From: a virus
Virus record (IMG/VR): IMGVR_UViG_3300027793_000078
Span: 14,478-78,477 of that record
Reading direction: 5' to 3' (one strand)
DNA length: 64,000 bases
The notes under the pieces are model-generated. The model was given only the letters and a program-made list of their open reading frames with translations, searched no databases and was not told the origin of the DNA. Within the stretch, counting starts at the first letter, position 1. Each line of letters begins with the position of its first letter. A program made the position numbers and the translations under genes. Shown piece after piece: positions 11,984 through 30,586 of the stretch.

Positions 11984-13414
11984 ATGATTAGTTTAAAAGA
12001 GTTATTGATGGAAGGAGCAAAAGAAAATGCTGCATTGGATTATTTGCAGCATTTGGTACGTAATGGGCCATTCAAAGGAAGAGTTTACCTTGCAGGCGGT
12101 GCTGTGCGTGATATGCAACTTGGTAAAGATCCAAAAGATTTGGATGTTGTTGTTACAGGCGGCATTGATGCTGGTATGGAATTTGCCAAATGGGCAACTC
12201 AATACATGAATAATTTCAAGGAAGGCAGCAATCCTGTGCTGTTTCCTACATATGGTACTGCTAAATTTACATTGAGTGGTATCGTTCATAATGGTATTGA
12301 TTTGAGTGATGTCGATATTGAAGCAGTTGCAACCAGAAAAGAAAAATATAGTAGTGGCAGTCGCAAGCCAGAAGTAAGTTCTGGTGATCTTGCCGATGAT
12401 GTTAATCGTAGAGATTTTACTGTTAATAGTCTGTTGAAAGACTTGACTAATGGTGAAATTTTGGATTTGACTGGATTGGGTAAACAAGATATTGCCGCTG
12501 GTATTATTCGCACTCCATTGAATCCTGATATTATTTTCAGTGAAGATCCTCTTCGTATGTTGAGAGCGGTTCGATTTGCTTTCAAATATGATTGGGATTT
12601 GCCATTATTTATGATTCGGGCATTGAAGCGCAATTCATCACAATTAAAAAATATTAGCAATGAACGTATTCGTGATGAACTGGATAAAATGCTTGTAACC
12701 GGTAGTCCAGATAGAGCAATTAAATTGCTACGCATTACAGGATTGTTAAACTATATCATTCCAGAATTTAAAAGTGCATACAAGATGACACAAAATGTTC
12801 ATCATAAGCATGATGTATTTACACATACGTTGGAAGTTCTGAAGAAAACTAAACCTGTGTTGGCTCAACGTTTAATGGCATTGTTTCACGATATTGGCAA
12901 AACTGTTACTCGTAGTGTAACTCCTACAGGTGTTCATTTTTATGGACACGAAGACAGTGGTGCTGATATGGCAAAAGACATTATGAAGCGACTGAAATAT
13001 CCAAATGAATTGGCTGACGCCGTTGCTTTGGGTGTTCAAAATCACATGCGCTTAAAGAGCGGCGGCGATGATGCAGTTAAACTGAGCGATAAAGCGTTGC
13101 GTAAATTTAAAGTTACTCTTGGCGATCAATTGGAAAATTTGCTTGATGTAATGCATGCAGATAATATTGCACATAGCGAAGCAAGCAGCATGCCAAATCA
13201 AATTGAAAATGTTAGAAAGCGTTTGGCAGCATTGCAAATGCCGACTGAAAAACCAAATTTACCTATCAATGGCAACGATTTGATTGCTTTGGGCTTGAAA
13301 CCGGGTCCACAATTTGCGAAGATTATGAGTGCAGTGACTGATGCTTGGTATGAAAACCCAAATATAAATCGTCAACAGGCACTTGAAATTGCTCGAAAAA
13401 TTGTAAATTTATGA
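11984..13414 (+). CDS. cca: CCA tRNA nucleotidyltransferase with HD domain
   Basis: GGAVRD, DLD, RRDFTVN, EDPLRMLRAVRF, ERIRDEL, HDIGK, KPGP. Confidence 0.92.
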   Translation: MISLKELLMEGAKENAALDYLQHLVRNGPFKGRVYLAGGAVRDMQLGKDPKDLDVVVTGGIDAGMEFAKWATQYMNNFKEGSNPVLFPTYGTAKFTLSGIVHNGIDLSDVDIEAVATRKEKYSSGSRKPEVSSGDLADDVNRRDFTVNSLLKDLTNGEILDLTGLGKQDIAAGIIRTPLNPDIIFSEDPLRMLRAVRFAFKYDWDLPLFMIRALKRNSSQLKNISNERIRDELDKMLVTGSPDRAIKLLRITGLLNYIIPEFKSAYKMTQNVHHKHDVFTHTLEVLKKTKPVLAQRLMALFHDIGKTVTRSVTPTGVHFYGHEDSGADMAKDIMKRLKYPNELADAVALGVQNHMRLKSGGDDAVKLSDKALRKFKVTLGDQLENLLDVMHADNIAHSEASSMPNQIENVRKRLAALQMPTEKPNLPINGNDLIALGLKPGPQFAKIMSAVTDAWYENPNINRQQALEIARKIVNL

Positions 13415-13698: not shown

Positions 13699-15132
13699 AT
13701 GCAATATAGCGATTTCTACAATTATTTGATAAACGAAGCGTTTGATAGTGTTTATTCTTTTTTATTGAATCCAGAACATGATGATACTGAATGGTATGAT
13801 TTGATTCGTAAATTTGAATCACATGGTGGCAAAGTTCTTGGACAAGGAAAATATGCAACTGTAATGGAGCATCCTTCTTGGAAATACGTATTGAAAGTAT
13901 TTAATGACGATGCGCCGTATATTAAATTTGTAAGATTTGCTTTGAAGAATCCACGTTCTTCATTTCCTGTATTTTATGACAAGCCTCGTAAAATTGTACC
14001 TCATTTCAAAAGATCCGAATCACATCCTTATTTGTATGTAGTTAAAACAGAAAAACTATATCCAATTAATAGAGACATATTTGGAGAAATTGAATATTAT
14101 TTGTATTACAACTATGAATTTGTTGATGATATGATTGCAAAATATAGTCGTGATAATGAAAAAGACAACATGTGGATTGAAATGAAGCACAAGTTGGAAA
14201 CATTAGAATCCAAATATCCTTCATTACCACAATTTAAAGAAGATTATAATTTTTTACTAACCAATGCTAATTTCGGTCAACTTGATATGCATGTGCATAA
14301 TATAATGCGTAGATCAAATGGAGAATTTGTTTTAATTGATCCATTTTGGCAAGGAGAATCAATTCATCAAATTCAAAAACGAGCATTTGATGCAGAAACA
14401 GATTATCCATATGACGAATATATTGCTTCTCCTATGTTAAAAGGTGGAGAATTACCAAAGAGAAAGCAGGTTCGTAAAATTAATTACAAACCAAAAGAAC
14501 CAGACTATAAGGCATCATATGGCGATGATTTTCCATTTTTTGAACAAAAAGTTAATAAAAAAGAATACGAACGTAGATATGAATTCATTCAAAAATATAT
14601 TGAGTCTTTAATTGAAAAAGCTCCCGGCAAAAATCGTGAAGAAAAATTAACTTATGTCTGGAATCATCACAAATCAACAATGGAAAAACTCATAGCAGGA
14701 TCACGCGCTTTGAGTAAACCATCCATTTTTGGTCGGATTGGTGATGAACATCCAGATTCTTATAAATCAAAATTTACAGCAGATAAGTATTATATTCGTT
14801 TTGGTGATTTGCCAAAAGGCGGCAAATCGAAAAACTATGCCACCAACGAAATGGAAATAGGAATTAGTTCTTATCCTGTTAAATGGAATATAGAAAAAAA
14901 TAAATGGGAAATAATTGAAGATCAATTGGAAGAATTTTCAGCACTTCATAGTTTGATATATGATATAACTATAGGAGAAGGACGACCTGTTTATTTGATT
15001 CAAGGTCAAGAATTGAATGATTTGGGTAGTGACGGAGAACCTATGTTGGATGTTAACAAAATTAAAATTATTAAACAATTACAGCCAGATGAATTCTTTA
15101 GTAAAGAATTAGGAAACAATTGGTATAGATAA
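13699..15132 (+). CDS. Protein kinase-like domain fused to unknown C-terminal domain(s), N-terminal tag
   Basis: VLGQGKYATV (Gly loop), VLKVF, DMHVHNIM, VLIDP; tag MQYSDFYNYLINE. Confidence 0.7.
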   Translation: MQYSDFYNYLINEAFDSVYSFLLNPEHDDTEWYDLIRKFESHGGKVLGQGKYATVMEHPSWKYVLKVFNDDAPYIKFVRFALKNPRSSFPVFYDKPRKIVPHFKRSESHPYLYVVKTEKLYPINRDIFGEIEYYLYYNYEFVDDMIAKYSRDNEKDNMWIEMKHKLETLESKYPSLPQFKEDYNFLLTNANFGQLDMHVHNIMRRSNGEFVLIDPFWQGESIHQIQKRAFDAETDYPYDEYIASPMLKGGELPKRKQVRKINYKPKEPDYKASYGDDFPFFEQKVNKKEYERRYEFIQKYIESLIEKAPGKNREEKLTYVWNHHKSTMEKLIAGSRALSKPSIFGRIGDEHPDSYKSKFTADKYYIRFGDLPKGGKSKNYATNEMEIGISSYPVKWNIEKNKWEIIEDQLEEFSALHSLIYDITIGEGRPVYLIQGQELNDLGSDGEPMLDVNKIKIIKQLQPDEFFSKELGNNWYR

Positions 15133-17866: not shown

Positions 17867-19240
17867 ATGCCTATACCAACAGACCACTTGATACTAGAAG
17901 GTAGAATATCAGATTTTAAGAAAAAGTATGCCTACAAATTGGCACCTGCGACTGTTAATTATATTATTGCCAATGATCCTAGTAAAAATCAGAAATATTT
18001 AGATTGGATAGGTAAATCTCTTGTGGCAGCAGATGAAGATGACGATTATATATCTCCAGAAGAAATGATGAAAGACATTGCATTGTTTCACAAAAATATC
18101 AAAGGCGTTGATATATACTCTCTCAAATCATTTGATCAATTGCAATCATTGGTACACAAACAAACAGAACCTTCATCAAGACAAAAAATACTTCAAGGCG
18201 CAGATATAATTGTAAATGATAAAAATTGGTTGGTTGTGGCTCCTAAAACACATGATGCAAGTATGTTTTTTGGTGGAAGCACTCGTTGGTGTATTAGTAC
18301 AAGTTCAGAATCTCACTGGGATAAACATTACAATGAGGATGGTGAAGCCATCATCATGCTTAAAAATAGAAAGAAAACATCAAGTAGCTTAGATTGGAAA
18401 CTTTGTTTAACTGTTCAACCGGGAGAAAGTGATTTGGATTATGCGTATATGTATGATGTTAAAGATTATGGAACAAGTGTTCGCAACAGCAGTTTTTATT
18501 CTTATGTCCCAGAATATGTGGTAGATAAAATAAATGATTATTTGTATAACAATCATGATGGTGCAGATCGTAGAGACACTTATACTCAAGAAAAAGAAGA
18601 AAAAGAAATAGAAGAATATATGCAACGTGAAGTAGTTGATGATATTCTAGCGAAATATATTCGACTAATAAGAGTAAAATATCCCAAATATGCAGAAAAA
18701 TTCAGTCGGGGTGATTTATTAGAATTTATTGATGAATTTGTTGGCGAAGAAATAGTAAAACAAATGTGCCGGCACATAGCTTCTTCGGCTATTGGTGAAT
18801 ATGGGTGGCAAGATATGCATATAAGAAGTTTGCAAGAGTTTGATAATTTTTTATACAGAGATTCACCAAGTAACGCCAATTTTTTCAATTATGCATTGGT
18901 AAGTTACGTTAATAAAGTTCTAGGAGTAGATATGTTATTAAATATAATTGAAAACAATATCGGCACATCAAACTTTAACCGGCTTGACTCGGATTATGAA
19001 ATAACAAACGCTTTAAATGATTGTGTTGAAAAATATGCGCTTGCGATAAATCAAGCAAACCAATTGCAATTACCAAACTTTCCACAAACAAAAGAAAAGT
19101 TTAAAAAATATGATATTGACGCCATTATTGAATTGCTAATAAAATATGGATATGATCAATTAGCAAATATAATAAAGTCATATAGCGTGAGAAAATTGCA
19201 AGAAATGCAATACAAACAATTCATTGTTTTCATGGTTTAA
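17867..19240 (+). CDS. Hypothetical protein with WCIS-motif domain (distant relative of first two ORFs), tagged
   Basis: DPSKNQKYLDWI, PKTHDAS...TRWCIS; starts HLILEG. Confidence 0.6.
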   Translation: MPIPTDHLILEGRISDFKKKYAYKLAPATVNYIIANDPSKNQKYLDWIGKSLVAADEDDDYISPEEMMKDIALFHKNIKGVDIYSLKSFDQLQSLVHKQTEPSSRQKILQGADIIVNDKNWLVVAPKTHDASMFFGGSTRWCISTSSESHWDKHYNEDGEAIIMLKNRKKTSSSLDWKLCLTVQPGESDLDYAYMYDVKDYGTSVRNSSFYSYVPEYVVDKINDYLYNNHDGADRRDTYTQEKEEKEIEEYMQREVVDDILAKYIRLIRVKYPKYAEKFSRGDLLEFIDEFVGEEIVKQMCRHIASSAIGEYGWQDMHIRSLQEFDNFLYRDSPSNANFFNYALVSYVNKVLGVDMLLNIIENNIGTSNFNRLDSDYEITNALNDCVEKYALAINQANQLQLPNFPQTKEKFKKYDIDAIIELLIKYGYDQLANIIKSYSVRKLQEMQYKQFIVFMV

Positions 19241-20874: not shown

Positions 20875-21378
20875 ATGAATCATAAAAATGAATATGGTTG
20901 CCTCATGGCAATCGTGCCTCCAACTCACGGTCCACATATTGTTAAATTTGGTAAAACTGTAATACCTCAAAGTTTATTATACACAAAGCCAGACGATGAC
21001 AGTTATGGCTATGATAACGAACCGCATGTAACTGTAAAATTTGGATATGCGCCCGATTTGAATAAGCAAGATTTGGCAACGATTTTACGAGGTATAAAAC
21101 CTTTTAATATTGTTTTGCATGCATTGACACAGTTTAACAACAGTGAATTTGATGTTGTTAAGTTTGATGCGGAAAGTCCCGTATTAAGAGAATTGAGAGC
21201 TAGAGCAGACAAATTTCCAAATAAAGATAAATTTCCAGAATACAAGCCGCACATGACTTTGGCGTATGTAAGACCAAATTCTTTTGGTCACATCAAAGAA
21301 AAACTAAATATTAGTGTTCCAATTAAACATTTCAAATATAGTGGTGCAGACGGTAGAAAAATATTAATTCATTTGTAA
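20875..21378 (+). CDS. 2H phosphoesterase, T4 gp57B/Acb1-like
   Basis: EPHVTVKFG and YKPHMTLAY. Confidence 0.75.
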   Translation: MNHKNEYGCLMAIVPPTHGPHIVKFGKTVIPQSLLYTKPDDDSYGYDNEPHVTVKFGYAPDLNKQDLATILRGIKPFNIVLHALTQFNNSEFDVVKFDAESPVLRELRARADKFPNKDKFPEYKPHMTLAYVRPNSFGHIKEKLNISVPIKHFKYSGADGRKILIHL

Positions 21379-23190: not shown

Positions 23191-23206
23191 CAACACAATG
23201 AGTTTT

Positions 23207-23346
23207 GAGATGCACACAGCAAACAAAAAAATGCCGTCTTCTCCTTCGGACATTAAATGAAGGTAGACTTGTCGATAGTCCATGAAAAAACACGATCAGA
23301 AGTTTAACTGTAAATAAAACTAAGCATATATTAATGTTGCGTCTCG
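23207..23346 (+). ncRNA. CAGCAA-module RNA, copy 1 (multi-hairpin cargo)
   Basis: GAGATGCA-CA-CAGCAA ... TGCGTCTC-G closing helix. Confidence 0.65.
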
Positions 23347-23658
23347 TTAAATTTCAGGCACTTGCCGATTGCCTTTGACACTATATAAGGGAAGTTCAAT
23401 TAAAATCGGCAAAGTTTTTGCGGAGTTGGTAGCGTCACCGCCATATAAAAAAGATGCTGCTGGCACGTTCTCAATTGTCAATCTGACGAACGGCGAAGAT
23501 AATGATTGACTGAAGGGTTGGTGCAGTATAACCTTGTGGTGTTAAAACCAACAAAACCACATAATTTAATTTTTGTTCTTTAAACATTTTTCGTAGGTCA
23601 TAGATACGATACTATTTTTAAAATATAGTATCAGGGGAGCGTAACCCTTATACGAAAT

Positions 23659-23773
23659 TAATCGGGTCCACAGCTAACGAAGCCGAAGAAGTGGATACAA
23701 TAGTGACAAATGCAGCTTATACCTGCTAGGTTCAAATGGACGCATTTGAACTCGACGAAACTTGTCCCGATTA
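23659..23773 (+). ncRNA. Unidentified structured RNA
   Basis: TAATCGGG/CCCGATTA closure; inner TCCAC/GTGGA, GCAG/CTGC, GTTCAAATG/CATTTGAAC. Confidence 0.5.
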
Positions 23774-23864
23774 CACTTTACTTTTTGTTCTTTTATATAT
23801 GAATCTAAATAGGCAGTCGCAAAGTTTTTTTGATGTTTAGTCTGCCGTAACAATACTTATGTGT

Positions 23865-24326
23865 ATGCGTAAAAAAACATACACAGAAGAACAGTTGATA
23901 TTAGCAGTCAAAACTAGTAAGAGTTATGCACAAGTTATAAAAAAACTTGGGCTTAAACAAGCTGGCGGAACTCAAAAAAACATCAAACATGAGATAAATA
24001 ATTTGCAATGTGATTTATCACACTTCCATTTCCAAAAATGGAATAAAGATAAAAAACTCAAAGAGTATGCTGATTATAAGCATTATAAATATGCTCGTCA
24101 TCATTTAATACTTGAACGAGGAGAAAAGTGCGAGAACTGTAATAATTCTGAATGGTGTGGTAAAAAAATTACATTGGAAATACATCACATAGATTGTGAT
24201 AGAAAAAATAACAATCCAAATAATTTACAAGTTTTATGTCCAAATTGTCATTCCATAACACATGGATATAAAAGACGTAAAGGTGATTATGTATTAAAGT
24301 CATCAAATGGAAAAGTTATAAAATAA
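23865..24326 (+). CDS. Free-standing HNH (homing-type) endonuclease
   Basis: CENC...LEIHHIDCDRKNN..NNLQVLCPNCHS; N-terminal HTH-like segment. Confidence 0.85.
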   Translation: MRKKTYTEEQLILAVKTSKSYAQVIKKLGLKQAGGTQKNIKHEINNLQCDLSHFHFQKWNKDKKLKEYADYKHYKYARHHLILERGEKCENCNNSEWCGKKITLEIHHIDCDRKNNNPNNLQVLCPNCHSITHGYKRRKGDYVLKSSNGKVIK

Positions 24327-24334
24327 TTTATGAT

Positions 24335-24418
24335 GGGCATATGGCGTAAAGGCAGCCGCGTTCGACTTAAAATCGAATTCCGTAAGGAGTGCTGGTTCGA
24401 GTCCAGCTATGCCTACCA
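24335..24418 (+). tRNA. tRNA-Leu(TAA), long variable arm, CCA encoded
   Basis: GGGCATA/TATGCCT acceptor; TTCGA-CT TAA AA-TCGAA; GGTTCGAGTCC. Confidence 0.93.
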
Positions 24419-24439
24419 ATTTTTATCTGTTCAAATACG

Positions 24440-24533
24440 TAGGTCGGACCAACATCAATAGTCAAGTTGGAAACCAGCGTGAAGCTAATGACTATTTCGA
24501 TGCTTCTGAATAGATAAATAAGTATCTGACCTA
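24440..24533 (+). ncRNA. Unidentified structured RNA
   Basis: TAGGTCGGA/TCTGACCTA closure; inner ATAGTCA/TGACTAT and GNRA-capped hairpins. Confidence 0.45.
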
Positions 24534-24583
24534 TACTTTAAGCTGTGGTGCGAATCCACAATGGTCACACTTTTAAAAAGTTG

Positions 24584-24611
24584 TTGACATTGGCGAAGAA
24601 AACGCTAAGAT
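24584..24611 (+). promoter_or_regulatory. sigma70-type promoter followed by boxA-like site
   Basis: TTGACA-N16-TAAGAT; TGTTCTTTACAA at 24642. Confidence 0.7.
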
Positions 24612-24660
24612 GTTCGCAACGATGAAGATGGTAATCTTCGATGTTCTTTACAAAATTTTC

Positions 24661-24941
24661 GGGTGGCGGAACAAACAAATGTATGGTTGTAACGCACAAT
24701 ATCAATGAAGAATTGATATTGGTTGGAGTAAACAATTGATGTGTAAATCTATGGAGTCAACGGGTCGATCAACCCAATGATAAGCGTATATTCGTCGTAG
24801 CTCAAAATAATGACATACCGACGAAATGAAGGTGAAATCCCTTTCAGTCATTAACATATGAAGTAATTAATCATATGGACTGTGGATGAATAACATAGCA
24901 GTTGTTGAAACTTGAAGGTAATCATTAGTCCTTCCCCACAC
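24661..24941 (+). ncRNA. ~280-nt structured RNA with T-loop-like hairpins
   Basis: 5' GTGG pairs with 3' CCAC; hairpins CAATATCAAT/ATTGATATTG, TTCGTCG/CGACGAA, GAAGG-TGAAATC-CCTTT, CATATGA/TCATATG, GAAGG/CCTTC. Confidence 0.6.
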
Positions 24942-25081
24942 TTTTTGCAAGGATGACAGATAGCAACTGTTCCGTAGCATTATATGCAGGATTTGAATTG
25001 GCAATCCAAATTCAAACATCGACCGCTTTTTTAGAAAAAAAATTAATAAATTTTGTTCTCTGATACTATATATGATTTAAT

Positions 25082-25160
25082 GTAGGAATGGTGTAATTGG
25101 CTAACATCTCTCACTTTCACTGAGAAGACATGGTGGGTTCAAATCCCCCTTCCTATACCA
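25082..25160 (+). tRNA. tRNA-Glu(TTC), CCA encoded
   Basis: GTAGGAA/TTCCTAT; TCTCA-CT TTC AC-TGAGA; GGTTCAAATCC. Confidence 0.9.
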
Positions 25161-25345
25161 ATTTAAGGTTTGGTTGTTTGCCTAATCAAAAACAGCATGG
25201 TGTGGGATGAGCAATCCACAGAGTTGACAACGCTCTTTAAACGTTGTATGGTTGCGGGGCTTAAATGGTGCTGATGTTACCGGGTGGACATCGGAATCAA
25301 TAGTAAACATCCGGGTTATTTTAAATAGTTCTTTTTTTATGAATT

Positions 25346-25425
25346 TGCGGGGACAAGCCGTGGGACGCTGACTACGCTCATAACGTAGGCGAAAGCTATG
25401 GTGTGTTCGACTCACACCTCCGCTA
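25346..25425 (+). tRNA. Atypical initiator-like tRNA(CAT) with GC-GAAA-GC variable hairpin, no CCA
   Basis: TGCGGGG/CTCCGCT; CTACG-CT CAT AA-CGTAG; GTGTG-TTCGACT-CACAC; divergent D arm. Confidence 0.7.
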
Positions 25426-25469
25426 TTTTGATTTAGTTCATTGACATAGTTTAAAGTTTTATATAGATT

Positions 25470-25541
25470 TGCGGGGTGGAGCAGTGGTAGCTCGCTACGC
25501 TCATAACGTAGAGGTCGCAGGTTCAATCCCTGCCCCCGCTA
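25470..25541 (+). tRNA. tRNA-fMet(CAT)-like, no CCA
   Basis: GCGGGGTGGAGCAG..GGTAGCTCG initiator body, 1:72 mismatch; anticodon stem CTACG/CGTAG. Confidence 0.9.
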
Positions 25542-25754
25542 ATTTTGGATTATCCTATAAAGCTCTGATTAATTTTGTTTAGTAAAATCACTGCCGAATA
25601 ACTAAAAGGCATTCGTATTATCCTCAATAGCAATATTGATGTTTAGACAAAATATAGATGATAATCTGCCGTGGATTGAATCAGCAAGGCTGCGGCAAAT
25701 CATTTTGTTTGGTAGTTTGGTCAACAATAAAACTACTCTAGTAACAACTGCTAG

Positions 25755-25963
25755 TCTCAGTTGATGGGTTCCATATCCCTTAATAAAAATATGGCATTTG
25801 CCCTTTTTTGTAGAAAAAAGGCGATGTTATCACTACATCTTAAAAGTGATTGTTGCATCTTAACATAAAAGATGCCCTAAGCAAAAGAACTCCGCTATAG
25901 TGAGTTCCAATAGATTCTCCTTTACGTGCTAGAATGTTTCATGTTAAAGTGAAACAACTGAGA
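25755..25963 (+). ncRNA. Multi-hairpin star RNA (7 hairpins in a 9-bp closure)
   Basis: TCTCAGTTG/CAACTGAGA enclosing CCATAT/ATATGG, CCTTTTTT/AAAAAAGG, ATCACT/AGTGAT, GCATCT/AGATGC, GAACTC/GAGTTC, ATTCT/AGAAT, GTTTCAT/GTGAAAC. Confidence 0.6.
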
Positions 25964-26008
25964 ATCAGCCACAAATTTATCTAGTAAGATTGTGGCACAT
26001 TTTAAAAT

Positions 26009-26078
26009 GGCGAGGTAGCTCAGAGAAAGAGCGTCGGCACAGCCGAGGACGGTGGTTCAATTCCATCCCTTGCCACCA
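26009..26078 (+). tRNA. tRNA-like gene with 3-nt loop in place of the anticodon loop, CCA encoded
   Basis: GGCGAGG/CCTTGCC-A-CCA; GCTC/GAGC D stem; TCGGC-ACA-GCCGA; GGTGG-TTCAATT-CCATC. Confidence 0.8.
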
Positions 26079-26085
26079 AATTTTA

Positions 26086-26209
26086 GAGATACATTCAGCA
26101 ATACAAATAAATAATAAACAGCTATACGTGGTGTTCGAATCCCACCTTGCCCACTAGACGGGCAAGTAGCCGAGCGGTTCAGGCGGCTGTCAAATAAAAA
26201 CGTATCTCG
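26086..26209 (+). ncRNA. CAGCAA-module RNA, copy 2, enclosing a circularly permuted tRNA body (YrlA-like)
   Basis: GAGATAC/GTATCTC closure; tRNA 3' half 26118-26153 precedes 5' half 26160-26190. Confidence 0.8.
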
Positions 26210-26221
26210 TATTTTTACAAT

Positions 26222-26297
26222 GGTGCGGTGGCAGAAATGGCTATGCAGGAATTTGCAGAATTCCATCATGTAGGTTCAACTCCTACCCGTACCTCCA
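26222..26297 (+). tRNA. tRNA-Cys(GCA), CCA encoded
   Basis: GGTGCGG/CCGTACC-T-CCA (U73); GGAAT-TT GCA GA-ATTCC. Confidence 0.92.
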
Positions 26298-26302
26298 GTT
26301 TT

Positions 26303-26443
26303 AACATTCAGTGACTATAAAAAAATTGCAGACGCAATGACCAAATAGAGGTTGGTTTTAGGTTTTAGTATGAGAAACGGAGTTTGTTGTAAACGTTTAT
26401 TTCATATATTTATTCAATCATTCGTCGTCTATTACCGAATGTT
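26303..26443 (+). ncRNA. Rod-like structured RNA
   Basis: AACATTC/GAATGTT ends; AGACG/CGTCT, AATGA/TCATT, AAACG/CGTTT nested. Confidence 0.45.
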
Positions 26444-26451
26444 TAATTTTT

Positions 26452-26504
26452 AAGACACTTGCAGCAAACATATTTTTTATTGAAAAAAACCAAACGGTGT
26501 CTTG
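26452..26504 (+). ncRNA. CAGCAA-module RNA, copy 3 (minimal)
   Basis: AAGACAC-TTG-CAGCAA ... GTGTCTT-G. Confidence 0.7.
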
Positions 26505-26514
26505 TTTTTGATTT

Positions 26515-26661
26515 TAGATTAGAGTTGGAGTTATCGTAGAAATCTGTGGAAGTTGTAATACACAGAGAGTATATTTAAGGAGCCGCTTGACAAACAGAAG
26601 GACAACGAGTATGTTTGTTCTAAGATAACTACACATCCCCTCGGTCAAAGGATATAATCTA
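26515..26661 (+). ncRNA. Unidentified structured RNA
   Basis: TAGATTA/TAATCTA closure; AGTTATC/GATAACT, TCTGTG/CACAGA, ACAAACA/TGTTTGT. Confidence 0.45.
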
Positions 26662-26663
26662 AT

Positions 26664-26785
26664 ATGTTGGTTGTTCAACGGCAGTCCGTTATTTAAAAAA
26701 CATCAATGGATGTGCCCGTGTTAAAACGGGATGAACGGTGAGAGATAGCAGTCCTACTGAAGGCGAAGACTGTAACAATCAATAT
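26664..26785 (+). ncRNA. Unidentified multi-hairpin RNA
   Basis: ATGTTGGTTGTT/AACAATCAATAT closure; AACGG/CCGTT, ACATC/GATGT, CCCGT-GTTAAA-ACGGG, CAGTC/GACTG. Confidence 0.5.
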
Positions 26786-26787
26786 TA

Positions 26788-26842
26788 TAGACACACACAG
26801 CAACTTTATATTCCAATAGGAAACAAAAGAGAACGTGTCTAG
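26788..26842 (+). ncRNA. CAGCAA-module RNA, copy 4 (minimal)
   Basis: TAGACAC-ACA-CAGCAA ... GTGTCTA-G. Confidence 0.7.
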
Positions 26843-26847
26843 TTCAT

Positions 26848-26941
26848 GGCCTCGTAGTTTAATGGTAGAACGCAACGCTTATAACGTTGATAAGCTCCAG
26901 ATTAGAGCACGGTCTCGGTTCGAATCCGGGCGAGGCTACCA
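26848..26941 (+). tRNA. tRNA-Ile(TAT) with long variable arm, CCA encoded
   Basis: GGCCTCG/CGAGGCT; CAACG-CT TAT AA-CGTTG; V arm GCTC-CAGATTA-GAGC. Confidence 0.88.
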
Positions 26942-26946
26942 AATTT

Positions 26947-27110
26947 TACCGTGTGGTATTTTTGTGATACACGAATAATGGGTAGCATAAAGCAGATATA
27001 CCACTGAGTGGTTTCAGATGGTAATGTATCATACTATGTCCAACGTTCGGTGCTAATTGCGTCTGACCAACATACAATTAGTTGTGGGTTTGATTCCCAT
27101 CCACGGTACA
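26947..27110 (+). ncRNA. ~165-nt RNA with tRNA-like acceptor stem and T arm
   Basis: TACCGTG/CACGGTA closure; GTGGG-TTTGATT-CCCAT. Confidence 0.55.
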
Positions 27111-27246
27111 CTTTCAATTCAATCTTTGACAACATATCAATGTTGAGACTAGTCATCTTACCAAAACAAAACCAATCATATTTTGTCGGAGTTGTCGTGT
27201 TTTTAAAGTTTTGTGAACTGTTCGACAACAACATTGATACTTTAAT

Positions 27247-27323
27247 GGCTAGGTAGTCCAACGGCAGGAGACATCCGACTCAAAATCGGTCCAGTGTCGG
27301 TTCAAATCCGACCCTAGCTACCA
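27247..27323 (+). tRNA. tRNA-Leu(CAA), short variable region, CCA encoded
   Basis: GGCTAGG/CCTAGCT; CCGA-CT CAA AA-TCGG; GTCGG-TTCAAAT-CCGAC. Confidence 0.9.
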
Positions 27324-27331
27324 ATTTTTAA

Positions 27332-27504
27332 TTCTGTGTATAGATAAACGGTATTGCTATTTGGTAATGACTGACAACAGTATATTATGAGTAAAATCGT
27401 AATAATTAGTAATACTAATACCTACGGGGATATCAGACTGAACAAACAAATGAGTTTTTGAATTTGGGTTGATATTACAAATCTATTGATTGCGGGTCAC
27501 AGAA
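27332..27504 (+). ncRNA. Unidentified structured RNA
   Basis: TTCTGTG/CACAGAA closure; TATTATGA/TCGTAATA, ATTAGT/ACTAAT hairpins. Confidence 0.4.
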
Positions 27505-27518
27505 ATAAAACTCTTTAA

Positions 27519-27658
27519 AAGATACATACAGCAACAAATAAAGCAATCCAAACTGCATATACAGCGTGAAAATCCTGTTCCCTCTGCCAATTTTAACAGA
27601 GTATTTATAGAGGGATCGTCTAACATTTAGGACAGCAGTACGCAAAAAATGTATCTTG
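27519..27658 (+). ncRNA. CAGCAA-module RNA, copy 5, enclosing a circularly permuted tRNA-Trp-like body with encoded CCA
   Basis: AAGATACAT/ATGTATCTT closure; 3' half 27552-27589 ends TCCCTCT-G-CCA, 5' half 27609-27639 starts AGAGGGA. Confidence 0.8.
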
Positions 27659-27664
27659 TTTTTT

Positions 27665-27810
27665 GAGTATACATGAACAGAATGAAAATTGTATGGCGAC
27701 GAGTCCTGTAGTCATAAGACAAGACGTGAGGACAAAGATATTATCTATAGGTAATATACGAAAAACGTAACGAAGTGTCTTTGTGGGTCAACTAATCCCA
27801 CTGTATACTC
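27665..27810 (+). ncRNA. Unidentified structured RNA
   Basis: GAGTATACA/TGTATACTC closure; GTCCT/AGGAC, ACAAAGATATT/AGTGTCTTTGT, GTGGG/CCCAC. Confidence 0.5.
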
Positions 27811-27820
27811 TATATTTTAT

Positions 27821-28009
27821 ATGAATATTATTCCAACTGATGTATTGAACAAAGGTTACAATGCATATGTTCATGTTGAAGGATGGAATAAAGCTGCCGT
27901 GTTTGTTTTTGTTGGATTTGAAAACGGCCAAAAGAAATTAAAAACACCAAAAACAAATCGTATATTGTATACAAAAAATAATCTAATATATACAAAGCGA
28001 TATCAATAA
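27821..28009 (+). CDS. Hypothetical protein
   Basis: Short ORF abutting next gene. Confidence 0.45.
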   Translation: MNIIPTDVLNKGYNAYVHVEGWNKAAVFVFVGFENGQKKLKTPKTNRILYTKNNLIYTKRYQ

Positions 28010-28249
28010 ATGACAAAATCAAAATATCATCCAGAACTTACAATTGCGCCGTGTCCAAATTGTAATTCTACAAATGTAGAAGAATCTGGTGATGATTTTG
28101 ATGGTGATGTTAGTTGTAATGATTGTACTTTAATTACTCCAATTTTTCTTGGAACCAAAAATGCAATAAATGCATGGAACAATAGAAAATATATGGATCA
28201 ATGGTTCTTTTTAGATCCTGAATTACATCAGATGGATTATCAGATTTAA
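28010..28249 (+). CDS. Lar-family (restriction alleviation)-like zinc ribbon
   Basis: PCPNC...VSCNDC...AINAWNNR. Confidence 0.65.
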   Translation: MTKSKYHPELTIAPCPNCNSTNVEESGDDFDGDVSCNDCTLITPIFLGTKNAINAWNNRKYMDQWFFLDPELHQMDYQI

Positions 28250-28433
28250 ACATTCAAAGTGGATGTTCAATGAAAGCATATTGTTTATGAACAGCAACAT
28301 GCATGTGTAGGTGAGAAGTCAGATATTTGTCGGTGGCAAACTCACATTAAACAAAGTCGAAACCGTCTTAGTCTTCGATATGCATTAGAAAATTAGTTTT
28401 CGTTTTGAACAGGAGACACCATTTTTGAATGTT
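28249..28433 (+). ncRNA. ~185-nt rod-like RNA
   Basis: AACATTCAAA/TTTGAATGTT, TGTTCAA/TTGAACA, GCATAT/ATATGC, TGTTTA/TAAACA nested pairings. Confidence 0.5.
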
Positions 28434-28461
28434 CTTTTTCAAAATATTGATATTTATATGT

Positions 28462-29106
28462 ATGAAAAAACATATAAAACTCATATCAATTGTTGCCGCA
28501 TCATTATTATTATTCACAATCGGTATAATTGCAGGTTGTAAAAAAGAAGAATCATCATCTAATTTGGATAAACAAACACAAGAAAGTTTCAAAGAATTAG
28601 AAAAAATGATGGAATTGTCCAATCAGCGTGAAAAAGAAAAAAAGCAATTTGAATCACAAAAAAATAATATAATATTTGTTGAAGAAATCCCCCGTGTATT
28701 TGCACCAATTGGTGTTACTAACTTTTTACGAATGAACAACAACCATCCTGTGTATCAGTTGGTTGATAAAAAAGATTTAAATACATATTTAATTGGATTA
28801 CGTGGATTTTACCTTGATAATAAAGTATTGGATTGGTACTCAAAAGGAGTATTTGATTGCGGCGATTATGCGATGGGTGCTACTTGGTATGCAAAAGCAT
28901 GGCATCGTAATACTAAAACAAGAATAGATGGTGCGAGTATTGCAGTAGGAACAATATTTTACAAACAAGATTCAACTGGAATTTATCATGCAATTAATGC
29001 AGTCATCTTAAAAGATCGAAGCGTATTGTTCTTTGAGCCACAAATTCAAAATGAAATATCTCTCTCAAAAGCAGAGATACAATCAATAAATTACGTTCAA
29101 TTCTAA
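28462..29106 (+). CDS. Lipoprotein with papain/transglutaminase-like Cys-His domain (agglutinin C-terminal-like)
   Basis: Lipobox IAGC; FDCGDYA...HAINAVI...FFEPQ; TATTTATA at 28451. Confidence 0.65.
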   Translation: MKKHIKLISIVAASLLLFTIGIIAGCKKEESSSNLDKQTQESFKELEKMMELSNQREKEKKQFESQKNNIIFVEEIPRVFAPIGVTNFLRMNNNHPVYQLVDKKDLNTYLIGLRGFYLDNKVLDWYSKGVFDCGDYAMGATWYAKAWHRNTKTRIDGASIAVGTIFYKQDSTGIYHAINAVILKDRSVLFFEPQIQNEISLSKAEIQSINYVQF

Positions 29107-29168
29107 AAAGTAGTTGACAAACATTATTAGAACTGATATTGTATAGTTATCTTAAAAATAAATAATAT

Positions 29169-29447
29169 ATGGCATATTTTCATGAAGGAAACTCCTCGGC
29201 GCCCCAACCACAACGTCCACAACCAAAGATTGGTATCAAAGATACCACTGAAGTTGTTTGTGACAAATGTCAGCACAATGTATTCAATATGGGACTATAC
29301 TTGCGAAAAGTAAGCCCATTGTTGAGTGGAACTGGTAAACCAAGCTACTTACCTATTGACAACGTAGCCTTTCATTGTGTAAAGTGTGGGCACGTAAACG
29401 ACGAGTTTGTTCCAGCAGAATTAAAGACGAATAAGCTAGTTCCGTAA
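29169..29447 (+). CDS. Zinc-ribbon protein
   Basis: CDKC...CVKCGH. Confidence 0.6.
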   Translation: MAYFHEGNSSAPQPQRPQPKIGIKDTTEVVCDKCQHNVFNMGLYLRKVSPLLSGTGKPSYLPIDNVAFHCVKCGHVNDEFVPAELKTNKLVP

Positions 29448-29464
29448 TACTTATTATTATTAAT

Positions 29465-29540
29465 GGCTACGTGGCAGATCGGTTTATGCATCATCCTCAT
29501 AAGATGAACGAGGTAGGTTCGACTCCTACCGTAGCTACCA
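29465..29540 (+). tRNA. tRNA(CAT), elongator Met (Ile2 not excluded), CCA encoded
   Basis: GGCTACG/CGTAGCT; TCATC-CT CAT AA-GATGA. Confidence 0.88.
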
Positions 29541-29691
29541 ATTTATCATCAAATACATGTTTAAATATAAATTTAAAACGATGATCTACTTTCTCAACGA
29601 AACGAGAAAACAATGGCTAGTAATTGTTGGATTATACAGTTTTATTTTTATAATTGTATATTTGATTATGAAAAAGATTTTTAACTGATTT

Positions 29692-29907
29692 ATGAAAAAA
29701 CTATTATTTGCAATATTTTTTGGATTGTGTCTAACAGTTGCCAGAGCGTCCGACGATGATGAAGATCGTGGTCGTGGTCGTGGTCGTGGCCGTGATGACG
29801 ATGATGAAGTTGTAACTGTTGTTCCTGAACCATCTACGTATGCGGCTATTGGATTTGTGACAGTGGCAGTTGCGTTCACCGTTTATAGAAATAAACGCAA
29901 GAGTTAA
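29692..29907 (+). CDS. Minimal PEP-CTERM protein
   Basis: Signal peptide, DDDEDRGRGRGRGRDDDDE, VPEPSTY + TM + RNKRK. Confidence 0.85.
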   Translation: MKKLLFAIFFGLCLTVARASDDDEDRGRGRGRGRDDDDEVVTVVPEPSTYAAIGFVTVAVAFTVYRNKRKS

Positions 29908-29961
29908 TTTTGCCAGTTACTAAACTGGATGGTGGAGGGTGCCATAATTGGCTATGCCCCT

Positions 29962-30000
29962 AAATGGTGGTTAGATTTTAAACTTTTAACCACCATTTTT
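29962..30000 (+). terminator. Rho-independent terminator
   Basis: AAATGGTGGTTA/TAACCACCATTT + T tract. Confidence 0.7.
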
Positions 30001-30045
30001 AAAAATTTTGACGTTTTGTTAAAAGCGTATATAGTTATGATTAAT

Positions 30046-30119
30046 GCGAGCATGATGTAGTGGTAGCGTTCGACCTTGCCAAGGTTGGTGTGCGGGTTCG
30101 ATTCCCGCTGCTCGCTCCA
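30046..30119 (+). tRNA. tRNA-Gly(GCC), CCA encoded
   Basis: GCGAGCA/TGCTCGC-T-CCA; CGACC-TT GCC AA-GGTTG. Confidence 0.92.
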
Positions 30120-30178
30120 ATTTCAAAAACCCATCATTTATTTGATGGGTTTTGTCGTTTATATAGATATTTATCTAC

Positions 30179-30586
30179 ATGACAAAGAGTGATAAATACG
30201 CAATATACAAGTTTGTGAAATTTGTGAAAGACGAATTGGGCATCACTGTGCCTTTCAAAATAAGAACAAGCGAAGACCGTAGCGGATTCAAGACATTTGC
30301 ATATTACAATCCAAACGATCAAGTGATTGCAGTATATATTAAAAATCGTTCACTGCCTGATGTAATGCGTAGTATTGCTCATGAATTGGTACATCATTAC
30401 GATCATCAAACTGGATTAGCACAAAAGCAACAAAATCCAGATGTTGGTGTTTACAATAACGATGCCGAAAAAAGCATCGAAGCAAATGATATCGAAAATA
30501 GAGCAAATGCAATTGCAGGATCTCTTATAAAGAAATTCGGCTATGCAAATTCTGATTTAAATATTTGGGGTGACGTAGCTAATTAA
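30179..30586 (+). CDS. HExxH metallopeptidase-like protein
   Basis: RSIAHELVHH...ENRANA. Confidence 0.65.
   Translation: MTKSDKYAIYKFVKFVKDELGITVPFKIRTSEDRSGFKTFAYYNPNDQVIAVYIKNRSLPDVMRSIAHELVHHYDHQTGLAQKQQNPDVGVYNNDAEKSIEANDIENRANAIAGSLIKKFGYANSDLNIWGDVAN

What the first reader, a model, noticed from the sequence alone, without database searches (positions are those of the whole stretch)
26086..26209. Circularly permuted, anticodon-less tRNA body #1 inside the clamp module
Seen: the order is ACAGC (anticodon stem 3' strand), TATAC, T arm GTGG-t-G-TTCGAAT-C-CCAC, acceptor 3' strand CTTGCCC-A, linker CTAGAC, acceptor 5' strand GGGCAAG, TA, D arm GCC-GAGCGGTTCA-GGC, G, GCTGT. All stems pair, but the halves are swapped and the anticodon loop is replaced by A-rich linkers to the clamp helix. 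Known precedent: bacterial/phage YrlA Y RNAs have this T arm, acceptor, D arm topology. Standard tRNA scanners would probably miss it. Speculative: joining C(26191) to TAATAA(26112-26117) would rebuild a 7-nt loop CT-AAT-AA.
Basis: partly seen in the sequence, partly recalled or inferred. Interest (0 to 1): 0.85.

Follow-up and report, generated by a model that had tools for sequence, protein, structure and literature searches.

The report
Phage Y-like RNA with tRNA body
This 125-base gene in a large freshwater phage encodes a small RNA built like a tRNA with its ends moved, mounted on a conserved "handle" that marks a widespread, apparently uncatalogued family of phage RNAs that travel with a Ro60-shaped protein.

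Summary
Window 26086-26210 (+) folds as a 7-bp closing stem (GAGATAC/GTATCTC). The stem holds a tRNA body in the order anticodon-stem 3' strand, T arm, closed 7-bp acceptor stem, D arm, anticodon-stem 5' strand. ARAGORN calls the re-joined halves a tRNA, against 0 of 300 shuffles.

A syntenic relative keeps the element, with compensatory changes in three stems. A covariance model found 125 relatives in viral contigs (95.8% of cells paired, against 36-46% in slid controls).

It is not a Rfam YrlA member (18.9 bits, cut-off 69). It lacks the GNCGAA Ro-binding motif, and no TROVE gene is present. It carries a different handle: stem, 3 nt, invariant CAGCAA, an A-rich 3' side, then G-U.

That handle co-occurs with a DUF2828/vWA protein whose model matches Ro60 structures:
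- all 10 near-complete RNA-bearing phage records have the gene, against 0 of 19 chance-hit records;
- the RNAs sit directly beside the gene in five cultured phages.

This 22%-complete record has no such gene. By synteny it should lie about 8 kb beyond the contig end.

Best reading: a YrlA-style tRNA-mimic Y RNA of a second Ro60-like branch. This scan has noted the same handle family before on other DNA.

The parts
26086..26092 (+). Handle, 5' strand of the 7-bp closing stem (GAGATAC)
   Evidence: Pairs with 26202-26208. All 7 pairs covary across 115 distinct relatives.
26093..26101 (+). Handle core: 3-nt spacer ATT, then the invariant CAGCAA (26096-26101)
   Evidence: AGAYRCNNNCAGCAA occurs 5 times exactly in the window, all on the + strand inside the tRNA island; 0.79 matches are expected even with one mismatch allowed. 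CAGCAA is present in about 105 of 115 relatives.
26102..26117 (+). A/U-rich 5' linker between handle and tRNA body
   Evidence: Sequence. Unpaired in the fold.
26118..26122 (+). Anticodon-stem 3' strand (ACAGC)
   Evidence: Pairs with GCTGT at 26186-26190. The ortholog has GCAGT/GCCGC, with one both-sided change.
26123..26127 (+). Variable region (TATAC, 5 nt)
   Evidence: Position between the anticodon-stem strand and the T arm. ARAGORN drawing of the re-permuted sequence.
26128..26145 (+). T arm: GTGG-(T)-G / TTCGAAT / C-CCAC, with a bulged T at 26132
   Evidence: Sequence. The loop-closing G-C pair is invariant in 88 of 88 relatives. TTCGAAT is the commonest loop in the family.
26146..26166 (+). 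Closed acceptor stem: CTTGCCC (26146-52), discriminator A26153, linker CTAGAC (26154-59), GGGCAAG (26160-66)
   Evidence: Perfect 7-bp hairpin. Three compensatory pair changes in the ortholog. All 7 pairs covary family-wide.
26167..26185 (+). TA, D arm GCC-GAGCGGTTCA-GGC (26169-84), then G26185
   Evidence: Sequence. The D stem covaries. GG occurs in the D loop here and in 68 of 80 relatives.
26186..26190 (+). Anticodon-stem 5' strand (GCTGT)
   Evidence: Pairs with 26118-26122.
26191..26201 (+). A-rich 3' linker (CAAATAAAAAC)
   Evidence: Identical in the ortholog. The A-run before the 3' stem strand is conserved in the family.
26202..26210 (+). Handle, 3' strand of the closing stem (GTATCTC), then conserved G-T
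   Evidence: G at position -2 is present in 113 of 115 relatives.
26009..26078 (+). Upstream neighbour: tRNA-like gene with encoded CCA and only a 3-nt anticodon loop. It ends 7 nt before the handle.
   Evidence: Rfam tRNA 51.9 bits; not called by ARAGORN; sequence.
26222..26297 (+). Downstream neighbour: tRNA-Cys(GCA), starting 11 nt after the element's last base (26210)
23207..23347 (+). Sibling handle RNA (GAGATGC/GCGTCTC) with non-tRNA cargo
26452..26505 (+). Sibling handle RNA with about 30 nt of cargo (AAGACAC/GTGTCTT)
26788..26843 (+). Sibling handle RNA with about 30 nt of cargo (TAGACAC/GTGTCTA)
27519..27659 (+). Sibling handle RNA carrying a second permuted tRNA body, with G-CCA encoded after the acceptor 3' strand

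Best explanation
Window 26086-26210 is the gene of a small non-coding RNA of about 125 nt. It is transcribed within the phage's tRNA operon. It is probably released by the enzymes that trim its tRNA neighbours, which lie 7 nt upstream and 11 nt downstream (inferred).

The RNA has two modules.

(1) A handle: a 7-bp stem joining the 5' and 3' ends, a 3-nt spacer, invariant CAGCAA, an A-rich 3' strand, then G-U.

(2) A tRNA body (T arm, closed 7-bp acceptor stem, D arm, anticodon-type stem) with no anticodon loop. This is the same topology as the YrlA class of bacterial Y RNAs.

The handle is most likely the docking site of a Ro60-shaped DUF2828/vWA protein. It would play the role that the terminal stem with its CGAA motif plays for TROVE-type Ro60. 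The tRNA body would then serve as a tRNA mimic. It could protect the RNA. It could tether the ring protein to factors that bind the tRNA elbow or acceptor, or act as a decoy for them.

By analogy with M. smegmatis YrlA, the 7-bp acceptor hairpin may be nicked by RNase P and CCA-tailed. The phage encodes its own CCA-adding enzyme.

Shown here: the structure, its conservation and covariation, family membership, and the genome-level link between handle and DUF2828.

Inferred: the physical binding, the processing, and the biological role.
For: Structure:
- All stems are present.
- The re-permuted sequence is called a tRNA; 0 of 300 shuffles are.
- The Rfam YrlA model aligns the T arm, acceptor and D arm in the same order.

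Conservation:
- The ortholog in syntenic relative G006 shows compensatory changes in the acceptor, D and anticodon-type stems. Its handle is near-identical.

Family:
- One pattern scan of viral contigs, followed by model R1, gave 125 hits.
- 95.8% of cells are paired, against 36-46% when partners are slid. 21 of 22 pairs have both-sided changes.
- Cargo varies: split or intact anticodon arm, normal-order tRNA, or none. The handle is constant.

Partner:
- A DUF2828 gene is present in all 10 RNA-bearing records that are at least 90% complete, about 7 lineages. It is present in 0 of 19 records whose pattern match was a chance coding hit.
- Handle copies sit directly upstream of the gene in G002 and G006.
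- In cultured phages, 2-3 handle RNAs abut the gene on the same strand in MiniMac, warpig (Felix O1-like), Listeria LP-064, Campylobacter F360 and Staphylococcus 6ec. Serratia jumbo phage BF has three copies about 200 kb from the gene. Within the eight 9-13-kb loci, the strict handle search gave 13 hits, against 1 in the reversed-sequence control. T4, which has no DUF2828 gene, has none.
- The top 12 PDB matches of the DUF2828 model are all full-length Ro60/TROVE structures, E 2e-8 to 4e-4.

Literature:
- Phage Ro60 binds Y-like RNAs through a motif in the loop next to the terminal stem (PMC12135203).
- Bas63 gp130 is Ro60-like, lies upstream of the tRNA genes and counters the Ppl defence (10.1101/2024.10.10.617714).
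Against: - No DUF2828 or TROVE gene lies in this 78-kb record, and no window ORF resembles one. The partner here rests on synteny with G006, where the gene lies about 8 kb past the point at which this contig ends.
- Binding of the handle to the protein has not been shown by anyone. Co-occurrence could instead reflect shared residence in tRNA/RNA-repair islands.
- Two of eight cultured DUF2828 phages gave no handle RNA with my model.
- The DUF2828 model is only moderate (pLDDT 69, TM 0.36-0.54).
- The loci were fished with the handle pattern, so handle conservation is partly built in for one copy per locus.
- The covariation alignment was fitted to the model.
- Expression of this particular RNA is not shown.
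Confidence: 0.62

Rival explanations
1. A true circularly permuted tRNA gene, as in Cyanidioschyzon merolae. The transcript would be circularised, the handle removed, and the acceptor linker opened by RNase P and 3' trimming. The product would be a decoding tRNA.
For: - The halves are in the right order, and ARAGORN accepts the re-joined sequence.
- 19 of 80 family members encode N-CCA right after the acceptor 3' strand; about 1.3 are expected by chance.
- The phage encodes a CCA-adding enzyme.
- Back-joined RNA unitigs exist over the sibling module at 27519-27659.
Against: - No conserved anticodon loop can be rebuilt: TAATAA here is AAAGAA in the ortholog, with no U33.
- The handle and linkers, which this route would discard, are the best conserved parts.
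- The 7-bp stem is not a bulge-helix-bulge motif.
- Many members have no tRNA cargo, or an intact anticodon hairpin, or a normal-order tRNA inside the same handle.
- This member lacks an encoded CCA.
- No joint was seen over this element.
Confidence: 0.05
2. The handle is not a protein platform. It is a processing, punctuation or stability element (nuclease site, terminator-like stem, or an unrecognised ribozyme) that happens to flank tRNA-derived spacers. The link to DUF2828 would then be indirect.
For: - The handles sit between tRNAs with U-rich tails after the G-U.
- Short cargo-less copies exist.
- In jumbo phages the RNAs can lie 40-200 kb from the DUF2828 gene.
Against: - Tight adjacency to the DUF2828 gene on the same strand in five unrelated cultured phages and in several short contigs.
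- Invariant single-stranded CAGCAA next to a covarying stem is the pattern of a protein-recognition site, like CGAA in Y RNAs (PMC12135203).
- No ribozyme or other Rfam family matches at E up to 10.
- A 7-bp stem is too short for RNase III (established knowledge).
Confidence: 0.15
3. A decaying relic of tRNA gene rearrangement in a recombination-prone tRNA island, with no function of its own.
For: The island contains homing-endonuclease genes and other odd tRNA-like genes, for example the 3-nt-loop tRNA at 26009-26078.
Against: - Compensatory changes in three stems between orthologs at 75% identity.
- Family-wide covariation.
- The same architecture recurs in unrelated phages of Mycobacterium, Escherichia and Serratia.
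Confidence: 0.03

Closest known systems
YrlA-type bacterial and phage Y RNAs with Ro60/Rsr (Rfam RF02553; Chen et al. 2014, PMC4201824)
   Same: - A terminal stem joins the 5' and 3' ends, with a conserved single-stranded motif just inside it.
- The tRNA-like module is in the order T arm, closed acceptor stem, D arm, with no anticodon loop.
- The 7-bp acceptor stem is like that of M. smegmatis YrlA, which RNase P cleaves.
- The likely partner is a ring-plus-vWA protein of Ro60 shape.
   Different: - The motif is CAGCAA, 3 nt after a 7-bp stem, not GNCGAA(N0-1)G.
- It scores 18.9 bits against the Rfam cut-off of 69.
- There is no TROVE gene. The associated protein family is DUF2828/DUF7788, which sequence searches do not link to TROVE.
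- The RNAs occur in arrays of 2-13 inside tRNA islands, with interchangeable cargo.
Thermus phage phiLo Ro60 with Yrl1/Yrl2 (PMC12135203; PDB 9KOP, 9L5Y)
   Same: - A phage-encoded Ro60-type ring with phage-encoded partner RNAs beside the gene.
- A 5'-3' stem flanks a loop that holds a short conserved motif.
- It is the best structural match of the DUF2828 model.
   Different: - It has a CGAA motif and no tRNA body.
- It is a TROVE-family protein.
- Binding is shown experimentally there. Here it is not.
Circularly permuted tRNA genes of red and green algae and Thermofilum (from my own knowledge: Soma et al. 2007; Chan et al. 2011)
   Same: The 3' half is encoded upstream of the 5' half, with the acceptor ends joined by a short linker.
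   Different: Those have a bulge-helix-bulge motif at the leader/trailer junction and yield a canonical anticodon loop. Here there is a 7-bp handle with CAGCAA, and no conserved loop can be formed.
Dictyostelium Class I RNAs (Rfam RF01414; Kjellin et al. 2021, PMC7919456)
   Same: - A short stem joins the ends, with a conserved motif ending in CAGCAA next to the 5' strand.
- The interior is variable, the 3' side is A-rich, and the 3' end is conserved.
- The cargo-less sibling at 26453-26504 is the best weak Rfam hit.
   Different: - The match is below threshold (20.7 bits against 41.5).
- It is a eukaryotic, Pol-transcribed family, reported as restricted to dictyostelids and bound by the RRM protein Rnp1A.
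- It has no tRNA cargo.
T4 species 1 and 2 RNAs (rnaC, rnaD)
   Same: They are small stable RNAs of unknown function inside a phage tRNA cluster. rnaC ends in a T-arm-like hairpin.
   Different: They have no handle motif and no hit with model R1. T4 has no match to the DUF2828 query protein among the 708 phage records listed.

Membership tests
YrlA (Rfam RF02553) | tRNA-like module in the order T arm, closed acceptor stem, D arm, opened on the anticodon side | tested here: met
   The cmscan alignment places all three arms in that order. The helices covary.
YrlA (Rfam RF02553) | Score at or above the curated gathering threshold | tested here: not met
   18.9 bits against 69.
YrlA (Rfam RF02553) | GNCGAA(N0-1)G Rsr-binding motif near the 5' end (PMC4201824) | tested here: not met
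   The 5' module reads GAGATAC-ATT-CAGCAA, with no GNCGAA.
YrlA (Rfam RF02553) | Encoded next to a TROVE-domain Ro60/Rsr gene | tested here: not met
   PF05731 is absent from the 78-kb record and from 4 relatives that are at least 93% complete and carry the RNA.
YrlA (Rfam RF02553) | Bound by Ro60/Rsr in vivo | not testable with these tools
   Needs immunoprecipitation.
CAGCAA-handle RNAs (not in Rfam 15; defined here by model R1) | A 7-bp stem joining the ends, a 3-nt spacer, CAGCAA, an A-rich 3' linker, then G-U after the stem | tested here: met
   R1 gives 93.2 bits, though this sequence was in the seed. The ortholog, not in the seed, scores 86 bits.
CAGCAA-handle RNAs (not in Rfam 15; defined here by model R1) | The stem sequence covaries while CAGCAA stays fixed | tested here: met
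   All 7 pairs have both-sided changes. The stems are wholly different in MiniMac, LP-064, F360, 6ec and BF.
CAGCAA-handle RNAs (not in Rfam 15; defined here by model R1) | A DUF2828 (Ro60-shaped) gene in the same genome | tested here: inconclusive
   Absent from this 22%-complete record. Present in syntenic relative G006, about 8 kb beyond the point where this contig ends.
Circularly permuted tRNA genes (algal/archaeal type) | The 3' half lies upstream of the 5' half, and the re-joined sequence is a valid tRNA | tested here: met
   ARAGORN calls the re-permuted sequence; 0 of 300 shuffles are called.
Circularly permuted tRNA genes (algal/archaeal type) | A bulge-helix-bulge motif at the junction whose cleavage and ligation gives a canonical, conserved 7-nt anticodon loop | tested here: not met
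   The junction is a plain 7-bp helix. The proposed loop is not conserved in the ortholog, which has CAAAGAA.
Circularly permuted tRNA genes (algal/archaeal type) | A circular RNA intermediate | tested here: inconclusive
   RNA-run contigs do not cover 26010-26158. No joint was seen at this element.
tRNA (Rfam RF00005) | A contiguous cloverleaf with an anticodon loop | tested here: not met
   No call by ARAGORN or by the Rfam tRNA model at 26086-26210.

The most novel reading that the evidence does not exclude
The handle RNAs may be a set of display scaffolds. A phage Ro60-like ring would hold out different tRNA parts: whole permuted bodies, anticodon-less bodies like this one, and bare anticodon-type hairpins. 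Some would be nicked by RNase P and CCA-tailed, or even circularised. The purpose would be to capture or mislead host tRNA-directed defence or repair enzymes. That would be an RNA-decoy arm of the phage-host conflict, built on an undescribed second branch of the Ro60/Y-RNA particle that may extend to the unexplained Class I RNAs of Dictyostelium.
Probability: 0.2. Interest if true: 0.88.

Novelty: new variant of a known kind. Interest (0 to 1): 0.72.

Why it matters
**Unannotated genes.** Phage tRNA islands are usually annotated as tRNAs plus empty spacers. This element shows that at least some spacers are genes for a conserved, modular RNA family. The family is found in phages of Mycobacterium, Escherichia/Salmonella, Listeria, Staphylococcus, Campylobacter and Serratia, and in many uncultured large phages.

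**A partner for an uncharacterised protein.** The family gives a concrete candidate RNA partner for DUF2828 proteins. These occur in 708 GenBank phage records. One of them, Bas63 gp130, has a measured anti-defence phenotype whose mechanism is unknown.

**An open question becomes testable.** What Ro60-type rings and tRNA-mimicking Y RNAs do in bacteria and phages can now be tested in easy systems, by deleting or mutating the handle, the cargo or the protein.

**A practical gain.** A covariance model of the handle would let annotators find these genes.

Tried and rejected
- **Exact search for this acceptor junction** (CTTGCCCA..GGGCAAGTAGCC) in viral contigs: 4 hits, all GC-rich coding DNA, no relatives.
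- **DNA similarity to GenBank phages:** the island region gave nothing (near mode) or only ordinary tRNA hits (distant mode). The two relatives' loci tried in near mode gave one tRNA-Pro hit and nothing.
- **Related loci through the island's 225-aa protein:** none.
- **TROVE (PF05731):** absent from the record and from complete relatives. This is what made me look for another partner.
- **T4 rnaC/rnaD:** no handle.
- **Window ORFs 13699-15132 and 17867-19240 against the DUF2828 profile:** no similarity.
- **Sequence search of the DUF2828 profile against PDB chains:** only weak vWA hits. Ro60 appears only by fold.
- **Metatranscriptome contigs:**
  - Four freshwater RNA runs hold parts of the island. 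Contig depths are very uneven, 47-91 over 25446-25994 and 26335-27181.
  - Only two low-depth contigs reach the element (26159-26309 and 26177-26328), and none cover 26010-26158.
  - This says nothing either way about expression or ends of this RNA.
- **R1 hit in Vibrio phage phi-Grn1:** the junction of two adjacent tRNAs, a false positive. No handle RNA was found in Acinetobacter phage ME3.
- **Supplementary tables of Chen et al. 2014** are not held. I could not check whether their phage 'YrlA' list already includes handle-type RNAs such as MiniMac's.

Full report
**Setting**

The window is bases 14478-78477 of a 78.5-kb IMG/VR virus record. CheckV estimates it at 22% complete, so it is a fragment of a very large phage. 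It is held by freshwater metagenomes, and by runs filed as 'fungus metagenome'.

Positions 23200-30200 form a tRNA island on the + strand. It has nine ARAGORN tRNAs plus one more that only Rfam calls. Upstream genes include:
- a CCA-adding enzyme (11984-13414);
- a 2H phosphoesterase (20875-21378);
- a lysozyme.

The finding lies between a tRNA-like gene with a 3-nt anticodon loop (26009-26078) and tRNA-Cys (26222-26297).

**Observation**

The details are in the parts list.
- The free-energy fold gives the 7-bp clamp, the 7-bp acceptor hairpin and the 5-bp anticodon-type stem.
- ARAGORN and the Rfam tRNA model do not see the element in the genome.
- Once the halves are re-joined through a 7-nt loop, ARAGORN calls a tRNA. 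None of 300 controls with shuffled halves is called.
- The Rfam YrlA model matches exactly this interval (26100-26216). It aligns T arm, acceptor hairpin and D arm in order, but scores only 18.9 bits against a cut-off of 69.

**It is conserved and under structural selection**

A 109-kb viral contig (G006) is a syntenic relative of this phage, at 78-90% nucleotide identity over the island and its flanks. Its ortholog of the element (L080:6917-7035) is 75% identical.
- The handle and both linkers are almost unchanged.
- The tRNA body has drifted, with both-sided changes at three acceptor pairs, one D-stem pair and one anticodon-stem pair.
- There is one A·C mismatch and one G·U pair.

**It belongs to a large family**

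The window has five exact copies of AGAYRC-NNN-CAGCAA. All are on the + strand inside the island, and each is closed by the complementary strand followed by G-T. Even with one mismatch allowed, 0.79 matches are expected by chance.

One scan of IMG/VR, using half of the handle's variants and a 95-125-nt gap, returned 63 loci. About 40 of them hold the same architecture. The rest are chance hits in coding DNA.

I built covariance model R1 from 22 members. It found 125 hits in the window and those loci, usually several per locus. On the resulting alignment:
- 95.8% of cells pair, against 36-46% when partners are slid;
- 21 of 22 pairs have both-sided changes;
- all 7 clamp pairs and all 7 acceptor pairs covary.

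That alignment is fitted to the model, and one copy per locus was selected by the pattern. The ortholog comparison above and the cultured-phage stems below do not depend on either.

Consensus of the handle: N-A-G-A-Y-R-C, 3 nt, C-A-G-C-A-A ... A5-Y, G-Y-R-U-C-U-N, G-U.

**Cargo is interchangeable**

Among 77 distinct members with a tRNA body:
- 27 have a split anticodon-type stem, like this one;
- 41 have a hairpin just 5' of the T arm, and eight of these have 7-nt anticodon-like loops such as CUACGAA;
- 9 are other.

Some handles enclose a normal-order tRNA-like sequence. Many enclose only about 30 nt, for example window 26452-26505 and 26788-26843.

Nineteen of 80 members encode N-CCA right after the acceptor 3' strand, where about 1.3 are expected. 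This member has A-CTAGAC.

**Why it is not YrlA proper, and what the partner probably is**

YrlA is defined by a GNCGAA(N0-1)G motif near the 5' end and by a neighbouring TROVE Ro60/Rsr gene (PMC4201824). Here the motif is CAGCAA. TROVE is absent from the record and from four near-complete relatives.

Earlier notes of this scan pointed to DUF2828, so I tested that myself.
- PF11443 is absent from this record.
- It is present in all 10 RNA-bearing records that are at least 90% complete, about seven lineages.
- It is absent from all 19 records whose pattern hit was a chance coding match, three of them complete.
- Contigs as short as 9-14 kb carry both the gene and the RNAs.
- In G002 and G006 a handle RNA lies directly upstream of the gene.

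In cultured phages fetched through a tblastn search, which matched 708 GenBank records, a strict handle search gave 13 hits against 1 in reversed sequence:
- three in tandem right after the 'Ro-like RNA binding protein' of Mycobacterium phage MiniMac, the middle one with a tRNA body (R1 73 bits);
- two after the vWFA protein of the Felix O1-like phage warpig;
- three right before the gene in Listeria phage LP-064;
- two before it in Campylobacter phage F360;
- three after it in Staphylococcus phage 6ec.

All are on the gene's strand. The stem sequences are entirely different and CAGCAA is invariant.

Serratia jumbo phage BF has three tRNA-body members about 200 kb from its gene. Vibrio phi-Grn1 and Acinetobacter ME3 gave none. 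T4 gave none.

The DUF2828 proteins are about 490-550 aa, with a helical N-terminal part and a vWA-like DUF7788 domain. An AlphaFold model (pLDDT 69) has full-length Ro60/TROVE structures as its 12 best PDB matches. These are led by the Thermus phage phiLo Ro60 and followed by Deinococcus Rsr and Xenopus Ro60.

**This phage's own partner gene**

The end of the window aligns to G006 at about position 69,590. G006's DUF2828 gene, apparently interrupted, lies at 77,694-79,435 with a handle RNA about 190 nt upstream. By synteny, the gene of this phage should lie about 8 kb past the end of the record. This is an inference.

**Mechanism**

Shown: a structured, conserved RNA with a Y-RNA-like layout and a genome-level link to a Ro60-shaped protein.

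Inferred by analogy:
- The handle is the protein's docking site. The CGAA loop next to the terminal stem plays that role in phiLo Yrl2 (PMC12135203).
- The tRNA body acts as a tRNA mimic. It could stabilise the RNA, or link the ring to proteins that recognise the tRNA elbow or acceptor, or act as a decoy for them.
- The 7-bp acceptor hairpin may be nicked by RNase P and CCA-tailed, as in M. smegmatis YrlA (PMC4201824).
- The RNA may be freed from the operon transcript by maturation of its flanking tRNAs, which lie 7 nt upstream and 11 nt downstream.

For biological context, Bas63 gp130 is a Ro60-like protein encoded directly upstream of that phage's tRNA genes, and it counters the Ppl defence. 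Its authors guessed that some of those 'tRNAs' are Y RNAs.

Joining C26191 to TAATAA gives CT-AAT-AA here, but the ortholog gives CAAAGAA. The segments that would be discarded are the most conserved. Cargo-less handles also exist. I put a true permuted-tRNA maturation route at about 5%.

**Novelty**

- Rfam 15 has no family that reaches threshold here.
- I found no paper describing the CAGCAA handle or a DUF2828-RNA pairing.
- The concept is known: a tRNA-mimicking Y RNA with a Ro60-type ring, including in phages.
- This is therefore a new variant of a known kind.
- Chen et al. 2014 list YrlA candidates in phages, and I could not inspect that list.
- This scan has already noted the same handle family on other DNA.

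Noticed in passing
window 27325-27806: RNA-run unitigs close on themselves around the sibling module (27519-27659). A 343-nt form joins 27667 to 27325 in two runs of different studies (X15, X17). A 297-nt form (27510-27806) appears in a third run (X14). Position 27325 is 2 nt after the CCA of tRNA-Leu. These could be circular RNA, RT template switching or an assembly effect. No DNA run was laid for comparison.
   Followed up: partly
window 26452-26505 (also 26788-26843): The cargo-less handle RNAs resemble the Rfam consensus of Dictyostelium Class I RNAs: a stem, CUUA-CAGCAA, a variable interior, AAAAAC, a stem, then UG. The best weak hit is RF01414 at 20.7 bits, against a cut-off of 41.5. DUF2828 also occurs in eukaryotes. 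The relation is unresolved.
   Followed up: partly
window 26009-26078: A tRNA-like gene with good acceptor, D and T arms and an encoded CCA (Rfam tRNA 51.9 bits). Its anticodon arm is TCGGC-ACA-GCCGA, a 3-nt loop. ARAGORN does not call it. It sits 7 nt upstream of the finding.
   Followed up: no
window 25446-25994 and 26335-27181: ORF-free spacers of the tRNA island are the parts held at highest depth (47-91) by contigs of four freshwater metatranscriptome runs. Neighbouring stretches have depth 2-9. This hints at abundant stable RNAs of unknown kind there.
   Followed up: no
L081:11608-14060 (G006 77.6-80.1 kb): In the closest relative, the DUF2828 reading frame is split into pieces of 133 aa and 372 aa, with a 283-aa ORF between them. 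This could be an inserted mobile gene or intron, or a broken gene.
   Followed up: no
L056:2830-3149: Five tandem copies (62-63 nt each, 64-65-nt period) of a cargo-less handle RNA in one 194-kb viral contig. That record is not held, so it could not be searched for DUF2828.
   Followed up: no
window 23859-24326 and 8998-10011: HNH-type endonuclease genes lie in and near the tRNA island. The first has a CxxC...HH...N...CxxCH pattern. The second matches PHROG endonuclease families.
   Followed up: partly
L084 (Listeria phage LP-064) and L089 (Serratia phage BF): In cultured phages the DUF2828 gene sits among RNA-repair genes: an RtcB-like ligase, an RNA ligase, a CCA enzyme fused to a phosphodiesterase, and a hibernation-factor-like gene, as annotated in the records.
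   Followed up: no
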